A stretch of 64,000 bases of DNA from Candidatus Zixiibacteriota bacterium. Lineage in GTDB: Bacteria; Zixibacteria; MSB-5A5; UBA10806; 4484-95. The stretch lies in the NCBI GenBank assembly GCA_021159005.1, contig JAGGSN010000187.1:6972-70971 (forward strand), given 5' to 3'. The notes under the pieces were generated by a model. That model was not told where the DNA came from, did no database searches, and saw only the letters and a program-made list of their open reading frames with translations. Position numbers and translations under genes: made by a program. Shown here piece by piece: positions 1-63,518 of the stretch (the stretch's first letter is position 1; each line of letters starts with the position of its first letter).

Positions 1-451
1 CTCATCGTTTTGCAAGTATGCATCACCCTATAGCCGATGTCAACAATTAAAATACCATGAGTTTCCCCGTTTTTTTCAGAACCCGACCTGCGAATAATTT
101 ATTAAAATTTTAGTGGTTGGTGTACGTCCTCGCGCACTAACTTTTTTTCAAATTGTATATATCAATATCCAAAGAATGCATCTACCTAATTTCATGTATT
201 GTCAGGAACTCTTCATGCGTAGTTCCATGCGTTGTCAGTCCGCCCCGGCGGATTTCCAGACAACATCGGCGTTCACGCAAATGGGTTCCTGCCTTCGCGT
301 AAAGCTCGGTGTATTAATAGTCAAGACCGCAAGGAGGGTCTTGACTTGAAAGACGGTATCTAATGGGCTGATGAGTCAAGTCCCAAGCGGACTTGACCTG
401 CTTCGCAATGCATCGTTTGTTGAAAGAAATCTGATAATTTGCCTGAAAAAA

Positions 452-14633: not shown

Positions 14634-14682
14634 TATTTATCGGATGCTGAGGCTTTGCCGCGTGATAGATAATTTCAGGCAG

Positions 14683-14721
14683 TGTTAGTTCATAGTCCGC
14701 CTAAGGCGGATGAACTGACAC
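14683..14721. repeat. family-C long hairpin repeat (…TCAGTTCATAGTCCGCCTAAGGCGGATGAACTGACAC), copy 1, plus partner motif ACCTGCCTGAACAGTTAAATG at 14748-14780
   Basis: inverted repeat around a CCGCCtaaGGCGG core; near-identical copies at 17922 and 29265. Confidence 0.7.
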
Positions 14722-14865
14722 GTTTTACTACACAAAATCGGCAGGTTACGTTTCACTACGACCTGCCTGAACAGTTAAATGAGGGGCAGACGGGGACGTC
14801 TGCCGCCCACGCGAATCCTTGTCCACCATAGGCGGACTTAGGTTGTTGAAAAAGCAGCAACACCT

Positions 14866-16404: not shown

Positions 16405-16413
16405 AAATTTTAA

Positions 16414-16440
16414 TGGTTGGCGTACGTCCTCGTCTGCCAA
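16414..16440. repeat. family-A hairpin repeat (consensus GGCTGGTGTACGTCCTCGTGCACCAGC), diverged copy
   Basis: ggttggcgtacgtcctcgtctgccaac. Confidence 0.6.
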
Positions 16441-16555
16441 CTTAAGAAATAAAGAATAGCCAAGACCACAAGTCCGCCTCAGTCGGATTGACCTACAAAA
16501 TACTAAACGTTCCCCTTTTATTGAATATATCGATATAATCATTTGTTAACAGTCT

Positions 16556-16600
16556 GAGGGCGTATGCAATACGAGGGCGTATGCAATACGCCCCTACGCG
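16556..16600. repeat. family-B hairpin repeat (GAGGGCGTATGCAATACGCCCCTACGCG), 1.5 tandem copies
   Basis: GGGCGTAT-gca-ATACGCCC perfect 8-bp stem. Confidence 0.75.
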
Positions 16601-16612
16601 AACGGTGTTTCA

Positions 16613-16667
16613 GTGGCTGGTGTACGTCCTCCTTTATAGTGGCTGGTGTACGTCCTCGTGCACCAAC
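16613..16667. repeat. family-A repeats: truncated copy then full copy
   Basis: ggctggtgtacgtcctcc…ggctggtgtacgtcctcgtgcaccaac followed by caataagtt as at 28039. Confidence 0.75.
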
Positions 16668-16676
16668 AATAAGTTC

Positions 16677-16746
16677 AGGGCGTATGCAATACGCCTCTAC
16701 GCGCAACGGCATTTCAGTGGTTGGTGTATGTTCTTGTGCACCAACT
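16677..16746. repeat. composite B + A unit (B 16677-16704, A-variant 16718-16746)
   Basis: same B-spacer-cagtgg-A arrangement as 16574-16667 and 27970-28038. Confidence 0.7.
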
Positions 16747-16830
16747 TCAGTGGTTCATGTGGATGGCATCCGCCATAGGCGGGCTCGTCTGCCAACAACG
16801 ACCCTTGACTGGGCTTATCCGCCTTACCGG

Positions 16831-17866: not shown

Positions 17867-17921
17867 TTATTCCCCTCTTGAGGGAGGTTAGGGGTATGTT
17901 ATTAACGCAAAATTTTATGTT

Positions 17922-17962
17922 GTGTCAGTTCGTAGTCCGCCTAAGGCGGATGAACCGGCACT
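17922..17962. repeat. family-C long hairpin repeat copy 2, plus partner motif at 17988-18021
   Basis: tgtcagttcgtagtccgcctaaggcggatgaaccggcac … cgtttcgctacgcatgcctaaacagttaaatg. Confidence 0.7.
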
Positions 17963-18099
17963 TTTTGCTTGATAAGAATATCGCCAGGTCACGTTTCGCT
18001 ACGCATGCCTAAACAGTTAAATGTTCTGAAAATAAAATGGGGAAGCTCCTATTTTACTAAAAGATTGACCGTTAATACAGTTATCTATATATTAAATAC

Positions 18100-24210: not shown

Positions 24211-24453
24211 GTGAATATGTTTGATTATATACTGATTGGCACGCCTGGCCCGACAGAACTGATTGTTATTCTATTGTTGGTTCTGGTATTATTCGGCGCC
24301 AAACGAATCCCGGAAATCGCTCAGGGATTAGGCAAAGGAATCCGCGAGTTTAAAAAGTCGATGAGCGACATTCAGGGCGAAATAGAATCCCCCGAAAAGG
24401 AGAAGAAGGCAGACCAACCATCAGAGAAAAAAGAAGACGACAAAAATGGCTGA
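24211..24453 (+). CDS. tatA: twin-arginine translocase TatA/E family subunit
   Basis: MFDYILIGTPGPTELIVILLLVLVLFGAKRIPEIAQGLGKGIREFKKS canonical TatA. Confidence 0.85.
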   Translation: MNMFDYILIGTPGPTELIVILLLVLVLFGAKRIPEIAQGLGKGIREFKKSMSDIQGEIESPEKEKKADQPSEKKEDDKNG

Positions 24454-24904
24454 GAATAATCAACGCCCGATTTTTACTGAAAACGCTATTCAAGCTATAG
24501 CCAAAGTTCTCAACAACGCCGAAGTCTCAAGCCTTCAGGACCACTGGCGAATCAAGGTGGTTAATCCGCAGGAGCATCGGCACCTGTCGATAGATATTTA
24601 TCCCCGGGCGAGTCTATCAAAGAAAAAGAAGGGCGCTTTGGTTTCAGTTTATGCCCTTAACAGCCATTTACAGCTTCATGAGTGCCGCGGTTTTATTATC
24701 TCTGATGAACTTGGCGAGGTTACTTTTATAAGCCATGCCGATAGCACACTCAGCGGTTTGGTTATCGAAAGGGAAGCTGCCTGTTCGCTCTATGCCAATG
24801 CCGACAAAGACCTGCTCTCGGATGATTTCACTCAACTCGGTGTCGAGGTGATGCTATCCGGCGTCGCTCTATCGTTAGCCGAGGAAATAATTGATAATAA
24901 ATAA
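24446..24904 (+). CDS. hypothetical protein, translationally coupled to tatA
   Basis: ATG overlaps tatA stop by 8 nt; 152 aa soluble, no recognisable domain. Confidence 0.45.
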   Translation: MAENNQRPIFTENAIQAIAKVLNNAEVSSLQDHWRIKVVNPQEHRHLSIDIYPRASLSKKKKGALVSVYALNSHLQLHECRGFIISDELGEVTFISHADSTLSGLVIEREAACSLYANADKDLLSDDFTQLGVEVMLSGVALSLAEEIIDNK

Positions 24905-24917
24905 TTAATAATTTTGT

Positions 24918-24949
24918 GGCTGGTGTGCATCACCGTGCGCCAGTTTTTA
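24918..24949 (+). terminator. family-A repeat variant followed by T-run, acting as intrinsic terminator
   Basis: GGCTGGTGTGCATCACCGTGCGCCAG + TTTTTAT 14 nt after the stop codon. Confidence 0.5.
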
Positions 24950-25238
24950 TGATATGCTGTCAGGTGCGGGGACATGACAGCGCTTGAAAATCATTTAAAG
25001 CTATTAATTAATATCACTGAATAGTCAGGAGTCGGAGACTCCTGACCTACTTCCTAAATATATAGTGAGTGCAAGGTAATTTTAAATATCAAATCTCACT
25101 CAGTTATCGCAGGTTGGGTTCTCCACCCCAGGCGGATGAGTGGAGCGAACGAGCGGACGAAGTCCTTTATTCAACCCGACACCTCTCACAACAATATAAT
25201 ATTTTTTCCTTTAGTAAAATCCCTATCATAATCGAAAT

Positions 25239-25269
25239 GTCGGGTTTCTCCCGTTGGTCGGAACCCGAC
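25239..25269. repeat. family-D hairpin repeat (GTCGGGTT…AACCCGAC)
   Basis: gtcgggtttctcccgttggtcggaacccgac; related copies 27812-27857 and 28054-28091; half-sites at 78-90 and 1630-1645. Confidence 0.6.
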
Positions 25270-25299
25270 CTGCTCTACTATAACAGATTGTGTGATAAC

Positions 25300-25413
25300 G
25301 GAAAACAAAAGAAACTCGCACTGACAGCATGTATGAAAAAACTCCTCTTGATAATACGGAGCATGCTAATTAACAAAACAACCTTTAATCCTGAAATAAA
25401 TAGCTTGACTTGA
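25300..25413 (+). pseudogene. IS110-family transposase C-terminal remnant
   Basis: NGKQKKLALTACMKKLLLIIRSMLINKTTFNPEI resembles the conserved C-terminus of IS110/IS1111 transposases; no N-terminal DEDD domain present upstream. Confidence 0.4.
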
Positions 25414-25428
25414 AAGACGGTATCTACA

Positions 25429-25455
25429 AAGCTGGTGTACGTCCTCGTGTAGCTT
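25429..25455. repeat. family-A hairpin repeat, diverged copy, immediately 3' of the IS110 remnant and flanking the GIY-YIG gene
   Basis: aagctggtgtacgtcctcgtgtagctt. Confidence 0.6.
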
Positions 25456-25458
25456 ATG

Positions 25459-25863
25459 CTATTTATGAATATTCCATGATTTCTGAGGCAACGTTGCTAT
25501 TATTGCATTTTCGAGTCCGTTGATCATATCGATTTCCAAACCGCTACTATACTGCCTATTTTCGGATGGTTTCCATGCCAGAATCTTTACCTTTTTATTC
25601 TCTCTAAGAGCTTGTTTAATCAATTCCGCAATCCGTTCATTAGTCCCAGCGCCTATCATTCCTTGGTATCGTCCCATGCGGTCCTTCAAAGTAGTTGTTG
25701 AACTTTGACACGCACCGACATACATGACTTCATCATTAACCAAAAAAGCATAAATAACTCTATCATCTTTGCTTTTATTTAGACTAAAACGTACGCCACT
25801 GCTCAAGTTTTCATCTAATAAACATTCACCAACTTCATTAAATTCAAGTCCTGATATTTCCAT
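25459..25863 (-). CDS. small GIY-YIG-like nuclease family protein
   Basis: RVIYAFLVNDEVMYVGACQSS…R…NERIAE fits GIY-(10)-YVG…R…E pattern; 134 aa. Confidence 0.5.
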   Translation of the reverse strand: MEISGLEFNEVGECLLDENLSSGVRFSLNKSKDDRVIYAFLVNDEVMYVGACQSSTTTLKDRMGRYQGMIGAGTNERIAELIKQALRENKKVKILAWKPSENRQYSSGLEIDMINGLENAIIATLPQKSWNIHK

Positions 25864-25893
25864 AAAACCTCCTGAAAATGGTAGTTATTTTGT

Positions 25894-25920
25894 GGCTGGT
25901 GTACGTCCCCGTGCACCAGC
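25894..25920. repeat. family-A hairpin repeat
   Basis: ggctggtgtacgtccccgtgcaccagc. Confidence 0.75.
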
Positions 25921-26052
25921 TATTTTATCGCCGCGGTGAGTCGAACCGAGGCTGAAAGCCTCGGCTATTATATATCCTAATATATTATATACTTCAAGAT
26001 GGTTCATCTCAGGTGAGCCGTATGACTGTAGGGATGCGGTTGCTCTTGGCAA

Positions 26053-26421
26053 CTACCGTTTCGATTTCTTACTCGATGTGTCCTTCTCGCTGTTTTTCTT
26101 TTCGATTTTTTTAACCTTCACCGGCATTTTCTGCTCAATTTTTGGTTTGGGCTTGGGTGGCGCAACCTTCTTGACAGCCGGCGCTTTGCGTTTCTGATAA
26201 TCATCGTTAATTCCATCGCCGTCTTTGTCGATAAACTTATCTTTCACAGGTAAGGCTGCAGCTTTCGATTTCAGTTTTACAGCCGGCGTTTTCTTATCAA
26301 TCTTCTTTTCGATTTTGGTCGAATCTTTTTTGCTTTTCTTAGACACTTTCTGAATAGCAAAAGCCTCCGCACCGCTCATAGCTATGAACAGCGCCAACGT
26401 CAATATAATTACTTTTTTCAT
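26053..26421 (-). CDS. secreted Lys-rich protein with thrombospondin-type-3-like Ca-binding motif
   Basis: signal peptide MKKVIILTLALFIAMSGAEA; DKDGDGINDD; KKSKK low-complexity; start ATG overlaps upstream gene stop (ATGA). Confidence 0.55.
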   Translation of the reverse strand: MKKVIILTLALFIAMSGAEAFAIQKVSKKSKKDSTKIEKKIDKKTPAVKLKSKAAALPVKDKFIDKDGDGINDDYQKRKAPAVKKVAPPKPKPKIEQKMPVKVKKIEKKNSEKDTSSKKSKR

Positions 26422-27782
26422 TTCCTGCCTCTTTCCTTAGAATATTTCGACCCGGATTTGGAGCTTCCGCTTTTTAATTTGTCGCTGGTTTTAGAACGTA
26501 CAGGTTCGGCTTTTTTAGACTCGTTTTTCTTGATATTGTCTGACTTTTTATTATCTGTTTTTTTTACTGAAGTTTGTCCCGAATTCGGTTTTTTCTGCTT
26601 CTGCTTTTTATTTATAATAATATCTTTATCGTCAGAATTCAAGGATTTACTGCTTTTTTCCCGTTTAATCTGATATTCTCTATCTTTTTGGGGATAATTG
26701 TGAATATTATCCTTTTTGTTTTTTTCTTTAAATATTAATCCGCTATTTTGCTTATTAATCTTTTCCGTGTAGGTTCCATCATTAAAAATCCTATCCGAAT
26801 ACTTTTTCTGCACTCTTGATGGCGGAGTATGAAGCGGCCTGGTATGTTTAACTCGATATTTTTCCGCTTCCCTGACAAAACCGGGATCGTTGCGGTGCTT
26901 CTCCTGTTTAAATCTCCAATTTTTCATATTCGAGCGGCCATAATCGAAATCCCGGAATTTTCGTTTAATCTTGGCATCGACATAATATCGCTGACCTCTT
27001 GTTACATAAACATAATCCTGCCAGCAGGGATAGCCATGATAATAAATCCATACCCAGTGACGGCCAATATATATTTCCGGTATAAGAATTGGCGCGATGC
27101 CGAAATAACAGCCGTCAATCCAGATCTCGGCGCCCGGGTAATCACAGCCAATCCAGATACTGCCAATATAATACGGGTCATAACGCCAGTAGCGGTACCA
27201 ACTGTGATGCCGGTAGCGGTTATCGATAAAAAACATCGTCGAGGCGGAAATATAAGACCCATTCCTAACAATTCTATTATTTAGGTCGTTTACGAAAACC
27301 GCCATCTCGCCGCGCATCGTATGAACGAAATCATCATAGTAGCTGTCCCAGTTGCCATACTCAAAATATTCATAACGCATGAATTCGGGAGGGTCAATCC
27401 GGTAGGGGCTGGCAACGGCGTAAATATATTCCTTGCCCTTAGGTCCGGTTACCTCAAGCCGGTAATCATCATAAGCATCGGGGATACGGTAAACCTCTTC
27501 GCCGCGAATAAAACAATCGCTGTTGTAATCGGATGGGAAAAGAAGGCTGACATTGCCGGCTGGATCGATATCATAAATCACCGCATAGCAATCCTCCGAA
27601 GCGCGAAAATAAACAGCCACATCTTCGCCGAAATAATATGTCGCTCCATCGCTTTTATTAACCCAGACATCAATCTCAAGGTTGTCAACCCTGCTGATGC
27701 CGTGTTTCTGGTCGGCGGAGGCGGCAACTGTCATAATTGCGGCCAGCGCTATTACCATTAAATTTCTCAAATGCTTTTTCAT
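26418..27782 (-). CDS. secreted DUF4384/PEGA domain protein with Trp/Tyr-rich region and Lys-rich C-terminal tail
   Basis: signal peptide MKKHLRNLMVIALAAIMTVAASA; PGAEIWIDGCYFGIAP PEGA-like motif; true start at 27782 (the track ORF extends upstream only by reading through repeats). Confidence 0.6.
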   Translation of the reverse strand: MKKHLRNLMVIALAAIMTVAASADQKHGISRVDNLEIDVWVNKSDGATYYFGEDVAVYFRASEDCYAVIYDIDPAGNVSLLFPSDYNSDCFIRGEEVYRIPDAYDDYRLEVTGPKGKEYIYAVASPYRIDPPEFMRYEYFEYGNWDSYYDDFVHTMRGEMAVFVNDLNNRIVRNGSYISASTMFFIDNRYRHHSWYRYWRYDPYYIGSIWIGCDYPGAEIWIDGCYFGIAPILIPEIYIGRHWVWIYYHGYPCWQDYVYVTRGQRYYVDAKIKRKFRDFDYGRSNMKNWRFKQEKHRNDPGFVREAEKYRVKHTRPLHTPPSRVQKKYSDRIFNDGTYTEKINKQNSGLIFKEKNKKDNIHNYPQKDREYQIKREKSSKSLNSDDKDIIINKKQKQKKPNSGQTSVKKTDNKKSDNIKKNESKKAEPVRSKTSDKLKSGSSKSGSKYSKERGRK

Positions 27783-27811
27783 ATCAACCACCTTGTTTAA
27801 TATTATTGTAG

Positions 27812-27857
27812 GTCGGGTTCTCCGCCTAAGGCGGACCGTAGCGGGGAGAAACCCGAC
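27812..27857. repeat. family-D hairpin repeat containing CCGCCTAAGGCGG core
   Basis: ggtcgggttctccgcctaaggcggaccgtagcggggagaaacccgac. Confidence 0.6.
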
Positions 27858-27888
27858 GCCGTTTGCTTTATTATGGTTTGAGGCATGC

Positions 27889-27999
27889 GAGGGCGTATGC
27901 AATACGCCCCTACGCGGAATAGCATGCGAGGGCGTATGCAATACGCCCCTACGCGGAATAATAGCATGCGAGGGCGTATGCAATACGGCCCCTACGCGG
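27889..27999. repeat. three tandem family-B repeats (39-42 bp period), no unique spacers
   Basis: gcatgcgagggcgtatgcaatacgcccctacgcggaata x3. Confidence 0.8.
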
Positions 28000-28011
28000 A
28001 ACAGTAATTGT

Positions 28012-28038
28012 GGCTGGTGTACGTCCTCGTGCACCAGC
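28012..28038. repeat. family-A hairpin repeat
   Basis: ggctggtgtacgtcctcgtgcaccagc then caataagtt. Confidence 0.8.
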
Positions 28039-28053
28039 AATAAGTTATTGTAA

Positions 28054-28091
28054 GTCGGGTTCCGACCCAACGCAGTAGGGGAGAAACCCGA
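28054..28091. repeat. family-D hairpin repeat
   Basis: gtcgggttccgacccaacgcagtaggggagaaacccgat. Confidence 0.55.
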
Positions 28092-28219
28092 TACAACCAC
28101 TTCATTTAACCCGATGCCGCTTGATTTGTTTTCATCTTTCATCATCGCTGCCTTTTTCTACAGCTGGTATCCGCCATTGACGGACACCAACCATATTACC
28201 CTATAAGAAATTATGCCCC

Positions 28220-29047: not shown

Positions 29048-29264
29048 TGAAACCTCCTGTTGTTATCGTCTGATAATTAATTAATCAATAATCATGCCAA
29101 AATCGCTAATTCTGTAACATGCAGTCTTTCAGGGAGATATGGTTTTACGTAAAAATGTCGGTTGCTGTTATGCACAATATTTGTTCGTTTGGCAACTATA
29201 GTTGTGCATGGCTATTATTCACATTGCAGGGAAATCCGAGCCGCCTAAACATTTGATTCGGGGT

Positions 29265-29304
29265 TGTGTCAGTTTGCAGTCCGCCTAAGGCGGATGAACT
29301 GACA
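29265..29304. repeat. family-C long hairpin repeat copy 3
   Basis: tgtgtcagtttgcagtccgcctaaggcggatgaactgacaca. Confidence 0.7.
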
Positions 29305-29566
29305 CATATAGCGAAGACAGGAACCACTGCCTGATTCCGGTAATATAAAAGTATCAATGTTGATAGGGAAATATTCCTGACAACGCTTGAATTAATCACT
29401 CCCTGATAATTTTTTAAATTTTGTAAAAACAAAATAATATCAACTTTGTTAATTGTGGTTAGGTTATTCTATATAATTGTGATTCATAGTCTTAAATGGA
29501 ATTATTAATGTTAAGCAATTGGCTTGCCAAACCGATAAAATATTTTAAATGTTTTAAAAAAAGTTC

Positions 29567-29716: not shown

Positions 29717-29807
29717 ATTAAACAGAATATGGTTTGCCGAGTGTAGAAATTATTATTGCAGTTCGGTGATTAAATAATGAATTTATGTGGCAGGAGAAGG
29801 ATGACTG

Positions 29808-31016
29808 ATGGCCAAGGAGAAATTTGAGCGAACGAAACCGCATGTGAATGTAGGTACGATAGGTCATGTTGATCATGGCAAGACTACATTAACGGCGGCG
29901 ATGACGATGATATTGGGTCGCAAGGGTCAGGCGGCGGTTCGCGATTTTGATTCGATTGACAATGCTCCGGAGGAGCGTGAGCGCGGCATAACGATAGCGA
30001 CGGCGCATGTTGAGTATGAGACCGATAGGCGTCATTATGCTCATGTTGATTGTCCTGGTCACGCCGATTATGTTAAGAACATGATAACGGGTGCGGCCCA
30101 GATGGATGGCGCGATATTGGTAGTTAGCGCGGCGGATGGTCCGATGCCTCAGACGCGCGAGCATATATTATTGGCACGTCAGGTAGGAGTTCCTTACATA
30201 GTTGTATTCATGAACAAGATAGACCAGGTAGATGATCCTGAGTTATTAGACTTGGTGGAGCTTGAGGTACGGGATTTATTGAGTCAGTATCAATTTCCGG
30301 GTGATGACATTCCGATAATTCGTGGTTCGGCATTAGAGGCTATGAATCGCGGCGCTGATGAGAGCGTACCTTATGATGATCCTGCTTTTAAGTGTGTGCA
30401 TGAGTTGATGGATGCGGTAGACAGCTATATACCGGAGCCGAAGCGTGATATTGACAAGCCGTTTTTATTGCCGATAGAGGATGTATTTTCGATAACGGGT
30501 CGAGGTACGGTAGGAACGGGTCGAGTTGAGCGCGGCAAGATAAAGACCGGTGATCCTGTTGAGCGTGTTGGTGTTAGGGAGACTCGCAAGACGGTAGTAA
30601 CGGGTGTTGAGATGTTTCGGAAGATATTGGATTATGCTCAGGCGGGCGATAATGTAGGTTTGTTATTGCGCGGAGTAGATAAGAATGATCTTGAGCGCGG
30701 CATGGTTTTGGCGGCGCCTGGCAGTATTAAGCCGCACAAGAAGTTTAAGGGAGAGGTATACATTTTGACGAAGGAAGAGGGTGGTCGTCACACGCCGTTT
30801 TTCAATGGTTATCGTCCGCAGTTTTATTTTCGGACGACGGATGTAACAGGTACGGTGAAGCTTCCGGAAGGTGTTGAGATGGTAATGCCTGGTGATAATG
30901 TAACAGTAGAAGGCGAGTTAATAACGCCGATAGCGATGGAGAAAGAGCTTCGTTTTGCTATCCGTGAAGGCGGCCGCACCGTAGGCGCCGGCGTTATTAG
31001 CGAAATAATAGAGTAA
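29808..31016 (+). CDS. tuf: elongation factor Tu (copy 1, tufB-type position)
   Basis: [25 protein letters not shown]; 402 aa; identical to the copy at 45482. Confidence 0.95.
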
Positions 31017-45417: not shown

Positions 45418-45481
45418 ATAGGGACGTTATTTTTATTTTTTAGTGATTTGATAATGGAAAATAAAGTTAAGGAGATGACTG

Positions 45482-46690
45482 ATGGCCAAGGAGAAATTTG
45501 AGCGAACGAAACCGCATGTGAATGTAGGTACGATAGGTCATGTTGATCATGGCAAGACTACATTAACGGCGGCGATGACGATGATATTGGGTCGCAAGGG
45601 TCAGGCGGCGGTTCGCGATTTTGATTCGATTGACAATGCTCCGGAGGAGCGTGAGCGCGGCATAACGATAGCGACGGCGCATGTTGAGTATGAGACCGAT
45701 AGGCGTCATTATGCTCATGTTGATTGTCCTGGTCACGCCGATTATGTTAAGAACATGATAACGGGTGCGGCCCAGATGGATGGCGCGATATTGGTAGTTA
45801 GCGCGGCGGATGGTCCGATGCCTCAGACGCGCGAGCATATATTATTGGCACGTCAGGTAGGAGTTCCTTACATAGTTGTATTCATGAACAAGATAGACCA
45901 GGTAGATGATCCTGAGTTATTAGACTTGGTGGAGCTTGAGGTACGGGATTTATTGAGTCAGTATCAATTTCCGGGTGATGACATTCCGATAATTCGTGGT
46001 TCGGCATTAGAGGCTATGAATCGCGGCGCTGATGAGAGCGTACCTTATGATGATCCTGCTTTTAAGTGTGTGCATGAGTTGATGGATGCGGTAGACAGCT
46101 ATATACCGGAGCCGAAGCGTGATATTGACAAGCCGTTTTTATTGCCGATAGAGGATGTATTTTCGATAACGGGTCGAGGTACGGTAGGAACGGGTCGAGT
46201 TGAGCGCGGCAAGATAAAGACCGGTGATCCTGTTGAGCGTGTTGGTGTTAGGGAGACTCGCAAGACGGTAGTAACGGGTGTTGAGATGTTTCGGAAGATA
46301 TTGGATTATGCTCAGGCGGGCGATAATGTAGGTTTGTTATTGCGCGGAGTAGATAAGAATGATCTTGAGCGCGGCATGGTTTTGGCGGCGCCTGGCAGTA
46401 TTAAGCCGCACAAGAAGTTTAAGGGAGAGGTATACATTTTGACGAAGGAAGAGGGTGGTCGTCACACGCCGTTTTTCAATGGTTATCGTCCGCAGTTTTA
46501 TTTTCGGACGACGGATGTAACAGGTACGGTGAAGCTTCCGGAAGGTGTTGAGATGGTAATGCCTGGTGATAATGTAACAGTAGAAGGCGAGTTAATAACG
46601 CCGATAGCGATGGAGAAAGAGCTTCGTTTTGCTATCCGTGAAGGCGGCCGCACCGTAGGCGCCGGCGTTATTAGCGAAATAATAGAGTAA
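45482..46690 (+). CDS. tuf: elongation factor Tu (copy 2, tufA-type position)
   Basis: protein identical to copy 1; nucleotide identity extends from ~10 nt upstream of ATG to the stop. Confidence 0.95.
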
Positions 46691-61945: not shown

Positions 61946-62328
61946 AATGCCGCTATATTAGTATTTTGTTTTAACCCAAGTTTTTGCAGTAGAAGTTTAT
62001 TATAGCAGTGATTATCACATAAAGCATTGCAATGAATCGATATCATTACACCATTTTAGCTCGGTTTACTAAGCGGTGCTTGGCAGCCAGGGAAAATAAC
62101 CTCACAGATAAAGTGAAATATTAGAAAACTGTCTTAATACTATTACAATCGTCAACATGCCCCTAAATCTCCTCTCAAGAGGGGGACTTCGTTAACATAT
62201 CACAAATGAGAATTGCCATAAAACCCTAAATCCTCCGCCATTTACGGGGGACTTTTAGATTGCATAGCCATATAACGTGTTAGCGCAAATATTATTCCTC
62301 TCTCGAGAGGGGTTAGGGGTGTGTTATG

Positions 62329-62386
62329 ACTGGTGTACGTCCTCGTGCAAAAGCGTCGCGGCTGGTGTACGTCCTCGTGCACCGGC
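62329..62386. repeat. two family-A hairpin repeats (truncated + full) adjacent to prfB 3' end
   Basis: gactggtgtacgtcctcgtgcaa … ggctggtgtacgtcctcgtgcaccggc. Confidence 0.75.
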
Positions 62387-62392
62387 ATTTAG

Positions 62393-63518
62393 CTATCTCG
62401 AAATCTTACCCGCGCCCTTTTTACTACCCCTATGAGACAGATAACCTGAGATGAAAACATCCAATCCGCCATCCATAACCATCTGGATATTGGATGTTTC
62501 AATATTAGTGCGATGGTCTTTTACCATGTTGTAGGGATGAAAAACATAAGAACGAATCTGACTGCCCCATTCAATTTTCTTTTTATCAGGTTCCTTTTTA
62601 GCCAATTTTGCTTGTTCCAATTCAAGATAATGCTGATAAAGGCGCGATTTTAAAATCTTCATTGCCGATTCTTTATTCTTATGCTGGGAACGCTGAGTCT
62701 GGCATTGGACAACGATTTTTGTGGGCAAATGCGTAATCCTTACCGCCGATGAGGTTTTATTGACATGCTGACCGCCAGCGCCCGAGGCTCGATAGGTGTC
62801 AATCCGCAAGTCCTCGTCATTAATTTCAACGCTTACGTTGTCTTCTATCTCGGGGATGACAAAAACCGAGGCAAACGAAGTATGACGGCGATTATTAAAA
62901 TCAAACGGCGACAGCCGCACTAACCTGTGAACTCCCGATTCGGCTTTCAAATATCCGTAGGCATGGTCGCCTCTTACCTCTACGGTTGCTGACTTTATAC
63001 CGGCTTCCTCGCCGTCGATATAATCCAAGGTCTCAGTCTGGAAACCTTTCTGCTCTGCATAGCGAAGGTACATCCGTAAAAGCATCTGCGCCCAATCCTG
63101 AGACTCGGTTCCGCCGGCTCCGGGGTGGATAGTTAGTATGGCATTTTTGTCATCATCCTCGCCGGAGAGAATAGATTTAAACTCGAAACTATCTATCTGT
63201 TTGACTAAAGATTCCGCCTGAATGGCAATATCCTGAAGGGATGTTTCGTCGTTATCGGAATTAGCCAACTCTGAAAGCTCTTTAAGGTCGGAGACCTCGC
63301 TATGGAGTTTTGTCCATAATTCGATTATGTTTTTTTTGCGGGAAGATTCTTTAAGGATTGCCTGAGCTTTCAGATTATCATTCCAGAAACCATCGACTTG
63401 AGTTTGCTTATCAAGCTTGGCAACCTCATCTTTAAGGGTATCGATGTCAAAGATACCCCCGTAATTTCATCAGGCGGTCGTCTAATTTATCGAAATCTAT
63501 TTCAAGATGATAAGCCAT
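62393..63518 (-). CDS. prfB: peptide chain release factor 2, requires programmed +1 ribosomal frameshift (join 63518..63450, 63448..62393)
   Basis: frame-0 MAYHLEIDFDKLDDRLMKLRGYL ends at in-frame TGA within AGGGGGTATCTTTGAC; +1 frame continues DIDTLKDEV… into the SGAGGQHVNKT (GGQ) ORF. Confidence 0.85.

What the first reader, a model, noticed from the sequence alone, without database searches (positions are those of the whole stretch)
25300..25427. IS110-family transposase 3' remnant sharing a 23-nt flank (CTTGACTTGAAAGACGGTATCTA) with the window start (343-365)
The final ~35 codons before 25413 resemble the conserved C-terminal tail of IS110/IS1111 transposases (…KKLALTACMKKLLLIIRSMLINKTTFNPEI). 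No upstream DEDD domain exists, so this is a relic. Directly downstream, CTTGACTTGAAAGACGGTATCTA (25405-25427) recurs exactly at 343-365, next to paired hairpins GTCAAGACC…GGTCTTGAC and GTCAAGTCC…GGACTTGAC (320-398). The ORF at 113-349 there has a vaguely similar C-terminus (SCLRVKLGVLIV). IS110/IS1111 elements are known to insert into REP-like palindromes. Two decayed element ends next to A repeats (113-141; 25429-25455) fit that behaviour.
Basis: partly seen in the sequence, partly recalled or inferred. Interest (0 to 1): 0.55.

Follow-up and report, generated by a model that had tools for sequence, protein, structure and literature searches.

The report
Two dead IS110 insertion-sequence ends
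The window holds two dead leftovers of an IS621-like, RNA-guided (IS110-family) insertion sequence, and the shared 23-nt repeat is the element's own right tip rather than a host flank; this is ordinary genomic debris, although one-tip leftovers of this kind recur in many uncultured bacteria.

Summary
CTTGACTTGAAAGACGGTATCTA occurs exactly twice, at 340-362 and 25404-25426. Shuffled sequence gives none.

Site 2 (25276-25425) carries the last 45 codons, the stop codon and the right terminus of a ~1.22-kb IS110-family element. It is 93% identical in protein to an intact 328-aa DEDD + Transposase_20 transposase (P0044). That transposase matches the IS621 recombinase at E=4.6e-45.

The repeat is not a flank. 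It is the element's right end. It holds a -35 box (TTGACT), the stop codon, the half-site ACGGTAT that the element's own bridge RNA copies, and the CT crossover core. In 27 intact relatives the flanking DNA diverges straight after this CT.

Site 1 (340-361) is a bare 22-nt right end joined to a hairpin (320-345). That hairpin matches the target guide of the closest intact relative's bridge RNA at 9 of 10 positions. A second, uninterrupted hairpin of the same family lies at 375-399.

No DEDD domain, left end or bridge RNA survives anywhere in the window, so both copies are inert.

The kind is known; this lineage is unnamed. In 9-10 of 16 truncated copies from unrelated metagenomes the break falls at the same point, 22 nt from the end, beside a hairpin. 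This hints at a specific deletion route, which I did not prove.

The parts
25276..25413 (+). Relic of the transposase gene: codons 284-328 of 328 plus the stop codon TGA (25411-25413). Nucleotide homology to the intact IS begins at about 25276-25278 (CTATAAC...).
   Evidence: tblastn of P0004, P0001 and P0010 against the window: 25276-25410 aligns to aa 284-328, E=2.6e-13. 93% aa identity to P0044. About 88% nt identity to the L103 IS over 150 nt. NF033542 positions 309-342 of 343.
25404..25425 (+). Right end (RE) of the IS at site 2: -35-like TTGACT (25405-25410), stop codon, donor half-site ACGGTAT (25417-25423) and CT core (25424-25425). The flank starts with AC at 25426.
   Evidence: Identical to the RE of 26 of 27 intact copies, in which the flanks diverge immediately after this CT. 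The bridge-RNA-like left end of the relatives carries ACGGTA(T/A)CT in its second internal loop.
340..361 (+). Solo right end at site 1: the last 22 nt of the IS only (-35 box 341-346, ACGGTAT 353-359, CT core 360-361). The flank AATGGGCT starts at 362.
   Evidence: Exact match to IS positions 1198-1220 of 1221; nothing else of the IS lies upstream. The right flank AATGGGCT resembles the flank ACTGGGCT of intact copy L103.
320..345 (+). Target hairpin 1 (GTCAAGACC-gcaaggag-GGTCTTGAC), the left target half-site. Its 3' arm shares CTTGAC (340-345) with the solo RE.
   Evidence: GTCTTGAC plus CT matches 9 of 10 positions of the left-target guide TTCTTGACCT in the left ends of L103 and L080. All 27 intact copies have such a hairpin 3' arm directly left of the IS.
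375..399 (+). Target hairpin 2 (GTCAAGTCC-caagc-GGACTTGAC-CT), an uninterrupted copy of the same palindrome family.
   Evidence: Nearly identical to the left flank of intact IS copy L103 (GTCAAGTCCCAAGTGGACTTGAC-CT|TGTATC...). These are the only two exact copies of this hairpin family in the window.
25239..25271 (+). REP-like hairpin (GTCGGGTT...AACCCGAC-CT) immediately left of the relic's breakpoint. Other copies lie at about 61-90 and 27789-27820 (-).
   Evidence: The arm GGAACCCGAC-CT is the left target of other lineages of this IS family (L035, L047; guide ACCCGACCT in L045). Here it is followed by its own GC plus 4 nt, so the break is not at its CT.
25429..25455 (+). Diverged copy of the window's commonest REP-like palindrome (GCTGGTGTACGTCCTCGTG...), directly right of the relic's RE.
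   Evidence: Repeat families D2, D3 and D5, with 9 copies in the window.

Best explanation
Both sites are non-functional leftovers of an IS621-like member of the IS110 family, a bridge-RNA-guided recombinase element about 1.22 kb long.

In intact relatives the layout is as follows. A host REP-like hairpin arm forms the left target. Then come a CT core, a ~215-nt left end that encodes a two-loop bridge RNA, a 328-aa transposase gene, a right end that finishes ...CTTGACTTGA(stop)AAGACGGTAT, a second CT core, and host DNA that starts with AC.

The 22-nt right end does three jobs. It ends the open reading frame. It supplies the donor half-site ACGGTAT-CT, which the second loop of the bridge RNA copies. 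It carries a -35 box (TTGACT) placed exactly 17 nt from TATCTT at the start of the left end, so a sigma-70 promoter would form only when the element circularises.

At site 1 the element had inserted at its canonical target, the 3' side of hairpin 320-345. Nearly all of it was then deleted between the CTTGAC of the hairpin arm and the CTTGAC that lies 22 nt from the right end. At site 2 a deletion removed IS positions 1 to about 1075. That left 45 codons plus the right end between two REP-like palindromes.

Shown: the identity of the fragments, their exact extent, the absence of the rest of the IS, and the match between the hairpin and the guide. Inferred: the promoter function, the order of events and the deletion mechanism.
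For: The family is large: 534 homologues at E<=1e-20, and every one of the 120 listed carries PF02371, nearly all with PF01548 as well. P0044 matches the IS621 transposase (PDB 8wt6) at E=4.6e-45 along its whole length. In 27 distinct intact copies the motif is the terminus and the flanks diverge immediately after it; 26 of 27 right flanks start with AC, and every left flank is a hairpin 3' arm followed by CT. The left end folds into two stem-loops with internal loops, and 17 of 41 pairs show compensatory changes. The 5' side of loop 1 copies each element's own left flank: mean 7.5 of 10 positions against 5.5 for other elements' flanks. Loop 2 holds ACGGTA(T/A)CT. Window hairpin 1 matches the L103/L080 guide at 9 of 10 positions. 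No other IS sequence exists in the window by blastn or tblastn, by Smith-Waterman against shuffles, or by a covariance model of the left end. That model's best window hit is 6.6 bits, yet it finds divergent left ends not used to build it at 63 bits. Published IS621 biology gives the same geometry: REP hairpin, then CT, then AC (target ATCAGGCCTAC), with a junction promoter whose -35 box lies in the right end (PMC11208160).
Against: No intact copy from the same organism or sample was recovered, so the parent element's own bridge RNA is unknown. The guide match uses relatives from other metagenomes (L103, L080). Pfam did not recognise the fragment, and the NCBIfam score of 16 bits is far below the family cutoff of 140. 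At site 1 the flank after the core is AA, not the usual AC. At site 2 the left breakpoint is not at a recognisable target core, so that original insertion site cannot be reconstructed. The junction promoter is read from the sequence only.
Confidence: 0.9

Rival explanations
1. The 23-nt motif is a host REP-like repeat or other common genomic repeat that has nothing to do with the IS and merely happens to lie next to a transposase relic.
For: The window is full of REP-like palindrome families. At site 1 the motif overlaps a hairpin arm.
Against: There are only two copies in 64 kb. In genome and metagenome scans the motif sits at the 3' terminus of IS110-type transposase genes in Zixibacteria, Ignavibacteriales and others, it contains their stop codon, and the flanks diverge straight after it. 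Its ACGGTATCT is copied in the elements' own left-end RNA.
Confidence: 0.03
2. The solo 22-nt end at site 1, like similar ones elsewhere, is the product of the recombinase itself rather than of generic microhomology deletion. One route is crossover between the true left core and the CT-TG that lies 22 nt from the right end, which acts as a half-site for the right donor arm. Another is a nested insertion at that half-site followed by donor-arm-guided excision.
For: In 9-10 of 16 truncated copies from unrelated contigs the break is at the same place, 22 nt from the end, directly after a hairpin and followed by AC; junctions such as ...CTGCC|CTTGAC... occur in L003, L021, L038, L043 and L060. None of these has a left end nearby. 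The breakpoint is a CT followed by TG, the two right-donor bases next to the core. A preprint reports that IS621 recombines at sites matching the core plus one arm only, and that it excises using the donor arms alone (10.64898/2026.08.31.748434).
Against: In the window the junction lies within a 6-nt direct repeat (CTTGAC) in a different register from the CTGCC|CTTGAC class. That fits repeat-mediated slippage better than crossover at one fixed CT. The left junction and the subterminal right-end site share 4-8 nt of homology in every case, so RecA-independent deletion also explains the pile-up. My searches could not detect ends shorter than 18-21 nt. The half-match experiments used a partner carrying a full donor junction.
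Confidence: 0.3
3. ORF 25069-25413 (114 aa) is a live small gene that has co-opted the transposase C-terminus, or the solo end acts as a host promoter element through its TTGACT -35 box.
For: An uninterrupted 114-codon ORF with a GTG start exists. The -35 consensus is perfect in 5 of 6 positions.
Against: The depositor's gene calls skip this interval. Residues 1-67 are translations of REP-like palindromes and have no homologue. No -10 box lies at the right distance from either end, and the promoter scan found nothing there.
Confidence: 0.03
4. The element belongs to the IS1111 subgroup, whose guide RNA lies downstream of the transposase gene. On this view hairpins 320-398 would be remains of that 3' RNA.
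Against: In 27 intact relatives only 12 nt separate the stop codon from the end of the IS. The structured RNA lies in the ~215-nt left end. Hairpin 2 is host DNA that flanks the LEFT side of intact copy L103.
Confidence: 0.02

Closest known systems
IS621 (E. coli), the IS110-group bridge-recombinase element (PDB 8wt6; Durrant et al. 2024, PMC11208160)
   Same: Intact relatives share the two-domain transposase (P0044 against IS621: E=4.6e-45 over the full length). They share the CT core and insertion at the 3' side of a REP hairpin followed by AC (IS621 target ATCAGGC-CT-AC). They share a left-end RNA with two internal loops that copy the target and donor half-sites, and a -35 box in the right end that pairs with a -10 box in the left end only in the circular form.
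   Different: This is a different and much-diverged lineage from uncultured sediment bacteria (Zixibacteria, Ignavibacteriales and the unknown host of this window). The right end is very short: 12 nt after the stop codon, which lies inside the donor region. Nothing functional remains in the window, only 150 nt at one site and 22 nt at the other.
ISPpu10 / ISPpu9 (Pseudomonas putida), IS110-family elements that target REP stem-loops
   Same: The target is a conserved intergenic stem-loop immediately 5' of the base-paired target sequence (bioRxiv 10.64898/2026.03.19.712850). ISPpu10 circles form a hybrid junction promoter (PMC12288879).
   Different: No sequence relationship was tested here. ISPpu9 carries modules (ssr9) that move on their own as circles. 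The solo ends here have no left end and cannot form a donor junction.
ISEc32 (IS110-like, E. coli plasmids)
   Same: It is the best match to the relic in the plasmid collection: 47.7% identity over the last 44 residues, E=9e-5.
   Different: Its ends (L002) show neither the CTTGTATC left end nor the CTTGACTTGAAAGACGGTATCT right end. It is only a distant family member.

Membership tests
IS110 family (IS110 group, IS621-like bridge recombinase elements) | N-terminal DEDD RuvC-like domain (PF01548) | tested here: not met
   Absent from the window: tblastn with 7 full-length relatives aligns only aa 284-328. It is present in the intact relatives. The window therefore holds a relic of a member, not a member.
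IS110 family (IS110 group, IS621-like bridge recombinase elements) | C-terminal Transposase_20 domain (PF02371), or an NF033542 full-length match | tested here: inconclusive
   Only the last 45 residues remain. Pfam gives no hit. NF033542 matches positions 309-342 of 343 at E=0.004 and 16 bits, against a cutoff of 140. The tail is nonetheless 93% identical to the tail of P0044, which carries PF01548 and PF02371.
IS110 family (IS110 group, IS621-like bridge recombinase elements) | Left-end non-coding RNA with a target-binding loop and a donor-binding loop (bridge RNA) | tested here: not met
   Covariance model R1 of 24 relatives' left ends finds nothing in the window (best 6.6 bits, E=2.3). The same model finds left ends not used to build it at 63-202 bits. 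In the relatives the fold has 17 of 41 compensatory pairs, and its loops copy the flank and the right end.
IS110 family (IS110 group, IS621-like bridge recombinase elements) | Element terminus with a donor half-site and CT core; flanks diverge immediately after the core | tested here: met
   Window 340-361 and 25404-25425 are identical to the right end of 26 of 27 intact copies. The flanks differ from the first base after CT.
IS110 family (IS110 group, IS621-like bridge recombinase elements) | Insertion at a guide-specified target next to a REP-like stem-loop | tested here: met
   Site 1: the arm of hairpin 320-345 matches the L103/L080 left-target guide at 9 of 10 positions, and the right flank AATGGGCT resembles L103's ACTGGGCT. 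Site 2: the left target is lost; the right flank starts with the usual AC.
IS110 family (IS110 group, IS621-like bridge recombinase elements) | Promoter reconstituted across the right-end/left-end junction of the circular form | not testable with these tools
   Read from the sequence only: TTGACT, then 17 nt, then TATCTT when the right end is joined to a relative's left end. No promoter is formed at the window's dead ends.
IS1111 subgroup of IS110 (guide RNA in the right end, subterminal inverted repeats) | Long non-coding right end downstream of the transposase gene that encodes the guide RNA | tested here: not met
   Only 12 nt lie between the stop codon and the end of the IS in all 27 intact relatives and at site 2.

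The most novel reading that the evidence does not exclude
IS621-like elements of this lineage leave a characteristic 22-bp 'solo right end' scar at their hairpin targets. The scar would be made by the bridge recombinase itself crossing over at a second CT-TG site 22 nt inside the right end, through half-site recombination, rather than by random decay. Window 320-361 would be one such scar. Bridge-recombinase excision would then not always be scarless, and the scars would record past insertions and leave donor-arm half-sites scattered through genomes.
Probability: 0.25. Interest if true: 0.5.

Novelty: new member of a known kind. Interest (0 to 1): 0.22.

Why it matters
For the window itself it matters little. 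These are two inert scraps of a mobile element in intergenic DNA, and the result mainly corrects the annotation: the shared 23-mer is the IS terminus, not a flank or a host repeat.

Two things have some wider use. First, this is a large and well-sampled IS621-like lineage in uncultured sediment bacteria: 534 homologues, and 27 intact copies whose flanks let guide-to-target pairs be read directly. Second, the same 22-nt solo-end scar recurs beside target hairpins. If the recombinase makes that scar, it bears on how cleanly bridge recombinases excise, which is a live question for their use as genome editors.

Tried and rejected
- **Pfam** scan of the ORFs gave nothing, because the fragment is too short.
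- **The word-indexed homologue search and the PDB sequence search** with the 50-aa tail gave nothing. The tail was identified instead with tblastn against plasmids and with NCBIfam.
- **Rfam** has no family that matches the relatives' left-end RNA; its only hit in the two loci searched was a tRNA in L022.
- **ORF 113-349 as a second transposase relic** was rejected: no family hit, and no alignment to the IS beyond shuffled-sequence expectation.
- **More IS sequence hidden upstream of either site** was rejected by blastn, tblastn, Smith-Waterman against shuffles and the covariance model.
- **The REP-like hairpin at 25239-25271 as the relic's original left junction** was rejected. It is followed by its own downstream bases (GC, as in the copy at 81-92) plus 4 more nt before IS homology starts.
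- **Solo ends as miniature non-autonomous elements** were rejected: no left end or right-donor sequence lies near any of them.
- **ISEc32 as a close relative** was rejected; its ends are unrelated.
- **L017/P0001** turned out to be an aberrant copy. Its N-terminus differs, and the left-end model found nothing in any of the three loci that carry this copy (L017, L024, L076). I did not use it to define the left end.
- **The host organism** was not identified.

Full report
**1. The observation**

The 23-mer CTTGACTTGAAAGACGGTATCTA occurs exactly twice in the window, at 340-362 and 25404-25426, both on the + strand. No further copies appear at up to three mismatches, and 100 dinucleotide-preserving shuffles gave none.

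GTCAAGACC/GGTCTTGAC lies at 320-328/337-345, and GTCAAGTCC/GGACTTGAC lies at 375-383/389-397.

ORF 25069-25413 ends ...YYNRLCDNGKQKKLALTACMKKLLLIIRSMLINKTTFNPEINSLT*.

**2. Is the tail an IS110 C-terminus?**

Pfam found nothing. The word-indexed homologue search and a PDB sequence search with the 50-aa tail also found nothing. Three other tests were positive:
- tblastn against 7.3 Gb of plasmids returned 1,274 records. All 30 listed are Escherichia or Shigella plasmids, and 25 of them annotate an IS110-family (ISEc32-type) transposase under the match. The best hit had 47.7% identity over 44 aa at the extreme C-terminus, E=9e-5.
- NCBIfam NF033542 ('IS110 family RNA-guided transposase') matched profile positions 309-342 of 343 at E=0.004.
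- After intact relatives were recovered (section 3), tblastn of these against the window aligned only 25276-25410, to residues 284-328 of 328, at E=2.6e-13. The closest protein, P0044, is 93% identical over these 45 residues. Its DNA (L103) is about 88% identical over 150 nt, with homology starting at about 25276-25278.

**3. What the 23-mer is**

A scan of one genome per species for the first 21 nt of the motif gave 19 loci, in Zixibacteria, Ignavibacteriales and one Cognatazoarcus. A metagenome scan with a 20-mer taken from it gave 75 more. Many lie at contig ends, as multi-copy elements do.

When the loci are oriented on the motif, the sequence upstream is usually the 3' end of an IS110-type gene. 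The sequence downstream differs in every copy from the base after ...GGTATCT.

A full-length transposase from one locus found 534 homologues at E<=1e-20. All 120 listed carry PF02371, and 119 of them also PF01548; most are 326-328 aa. P0044 aligns to the IS621 recombinase (PDB 8wt6) along its whole length at E=4.6e-45.

I tabulated 27 distinct intact copies with both flanks. Each is 1,212-1,227 bp long and has this layout:
- a host hairpin 3' arm, then CT;
- TGTATCTTA..., a left end of about 215 nt;
- the 328-aa gene;
- ...CTTGACTTGAAAGACGGTAT, then CT;
- host DNA, starting with AC in 26 of 27 copies.

So the 23-mer is the last 22 nt of the element plus one flank base. It is not a flank.

**4. 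What the right end does**

The left ends of 24 relatives fold into two stem-loops, each with a large internal loop. Of 41 predicted pairs, 17 show compensatory changes. This is the two-loop architecture of the IS110 bridge RNA as I know it from the IS621 papers; the passages read here say only that the RNA has a target-binding loop and a donor-binding loop (PMC11208160 and PMC11208158).

The 5' side of loop 1 repeats each element's own left flank plus CT. The mean match is 7.5 of 10 positions against 5.5 for other elements' flanks, and three low values are 1-nt register shifts. The 3' side of loop 1 carries GTAGA, the complement of TCTAC, which spans the CT core and the flanking AC.

Loop 2 carries ACGGTA(T/A)CT, a copy of the right end, and ACAAG, the complement of CTTGT at the start of the left end. 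The motif's ACGGTAT-CT is therefore the left donor half-site plus the core.

The motif also holds the stop codon. In addition, TTGACT lies exactly 17 nt from TATCTT at the start of the left end once the two ends are joined. That is a junction promoter of the kind described for IS621, whose -35 box also lies in the right end. This promoter is read from the sequence and has not been tested.

**5. Site 1 (320-399)**

Only IS positions 1198-1220 are present. Nothing upstream aligns to the IS better than shuffled sequence does.

The solo end is joined to hairpin 320-345, and the two share the hexamer CTTGAC. The hairpin arm GTCTTGAC plus CT matches the left-target guide TTCTTGACCT of the closest intact relatives (L103, L080) at 9 of 10 positions. 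That is better than L103's own flank, which matches at 8 of 10. The right flank AATGGGCT resembles L103's ACTGGGCT.

Hairpin 375-397 with its CT (398-399) is almost identical to the DNA immediately left of intact copy L103 (GTCAAGTCCCAAGTGGACTTGAC-CT|TGTATC). Here it is uninterrupted.

Reading: the element inserted at a canonical target and then lost about 1.2 kb, probably between the two CTTGAC repeats.

**6. Site 2 (25239-25455)**

The relic (25276-25425) is bounded on the left by a REP-like hairpin (25239-25271). The arm of that hairpin, GGAACCCGAC-CT, is a genuine target for other lineages of this family (L035, L047). Here, however, the hairpin keeps its own downstream bases, so the break is not at its core.

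On the right, the element end abuts a diverged copy of the window's commonest palindrome (25429-25455). The flank begins with the usual AC. The original left target cannot be reconstructed.

**7. Nothing functional remains**

There is no DEDD domain. There is no left end or bridge RNA: covariance model R1 scores at best 6.6 bits in the window, yet it finds divergent left ends not used to build it at 63 bits. No promoter forms at either end. The depositor called no gene in this interval. The source is a metagenome scaffold (ENA ERZ23499370, scaffold_105), and I did not identify the host.

**8. A pattern beyond the window**

Sixteen copies were truncated by something other than a contig end. In 9-10 of them only the 22-nt end is kept (±0-2 nt), directly after a hairpin and followed by AC. 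Examples are ...GACCTGCC|CTTGACTTGAAAGACGGTATCT|AC in L003, L038, L043 and L060, and similar junctions in L009, L021, L006 and L039. The others keep about 36 to 150 nt, and each of these is also preceded by a hairpin. None has a left end nearby.

The common breakpoint is a CT followed by TG, the two right-donor bases next to the core. It also shares 4-8 nt of homology with the left junction. Two routes fit:
- short-repeat slippage, which the different register seen in the window favours;
- recombinase action at a half-site, as a preprint reports for IS621 (10.64898/2026.08.31.748434).

I cannot separate these by computation. My searches could not see ends shorter than 18-21 nt.

**9. Verdict**

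The anatomy needs correcting: the motif is the IS terminus, ORF 113-349 is unrelated, and the relevant palindrome at site 1 is the GTCAAG hairpin. The kind is well known, the lineage is unnamed, and the window copies are inert. Interest is low, with a modest side lead in the recurrent solo-end scars.

Noticed in passing
window 29800-31016 and 45474-46690: Two copies of a 402-aa EF-Tu (tuf) gene are identical over 1,217 nt, with similarity fading within about 50 nt on each side. This looks like the usual tufA/tufB pair kept identical by gene conversion.
   Followed up: partly
window 110-149, 16410-16753, 24913-24952, 25889-25928, 28007-28046, 62323-62394: A REP-like palindrome family (GTGGCTGGTGTACGTCCTCGTGCACCAGC) has 9 or more copies in intergenic DNA. 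The copy at 24918-24945 also scores as a terminator-like hairpin.
   Followed up: partly
window 16550-16708 and 27883-28002: A second palindrome family (GAGGGCGTATGCAATACGCCC-CT-ACGCGG) occurs in tandem arrays. Each unit ends in hairpin-CT-AC, the target geometry of IS621-like elements, yet none is occupied.
   Followed up: no
window 14671-14729, 17911-17969, 29255-29313: A third repeat family of about 59 nt is centred on GTCCGCCTAAGGCGGATGAAC. Related GTCCGCC...GGCGGA hairpins also occur at 225-260 and 27818-27835.
   Followed up: no
window 26418-28145 (-): The 575-aa mechanical ORF runs through the palindrome array at 27883-28046. The depositor's gene call for this locus is only 454 aa (PF14326 DUF4384 and PEGA), so the N-terminal ~120 codons are probably translated repeats.
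   Followed up: partly
L017 / L024 / L076 (Ga0315555_1000015): This IS copy has an intact-looking 320-aa gene, but its N-terminus differs from the family (other members align over only 76% of it). The left-end covariance model finds nothing upstream. It may be a chimeric or 5'-replaced copy without a bridge RNA.
   Followed up: no
L019 (about 90-120 nt upstream of its truncated right end); L074 and L085: Uninterrupted target-type sites (hairpin-CT-AC), such as GGCAGAACCGCTAAAGGGTTCTTCC-CT-ACG and GTCAAGCCC...GGGCTTGAC-CT-AC, lie near IS ends in other organisms. The targeted palindrome families are therefore shared across distant taxa.
   Followed up: partly
window 25459-25863 (-) and 24446-24904 (+): The two convergent genes flanking the relic (134 aa and 152 aa) have no Pfam match even at E<=10.
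   Followed up: no
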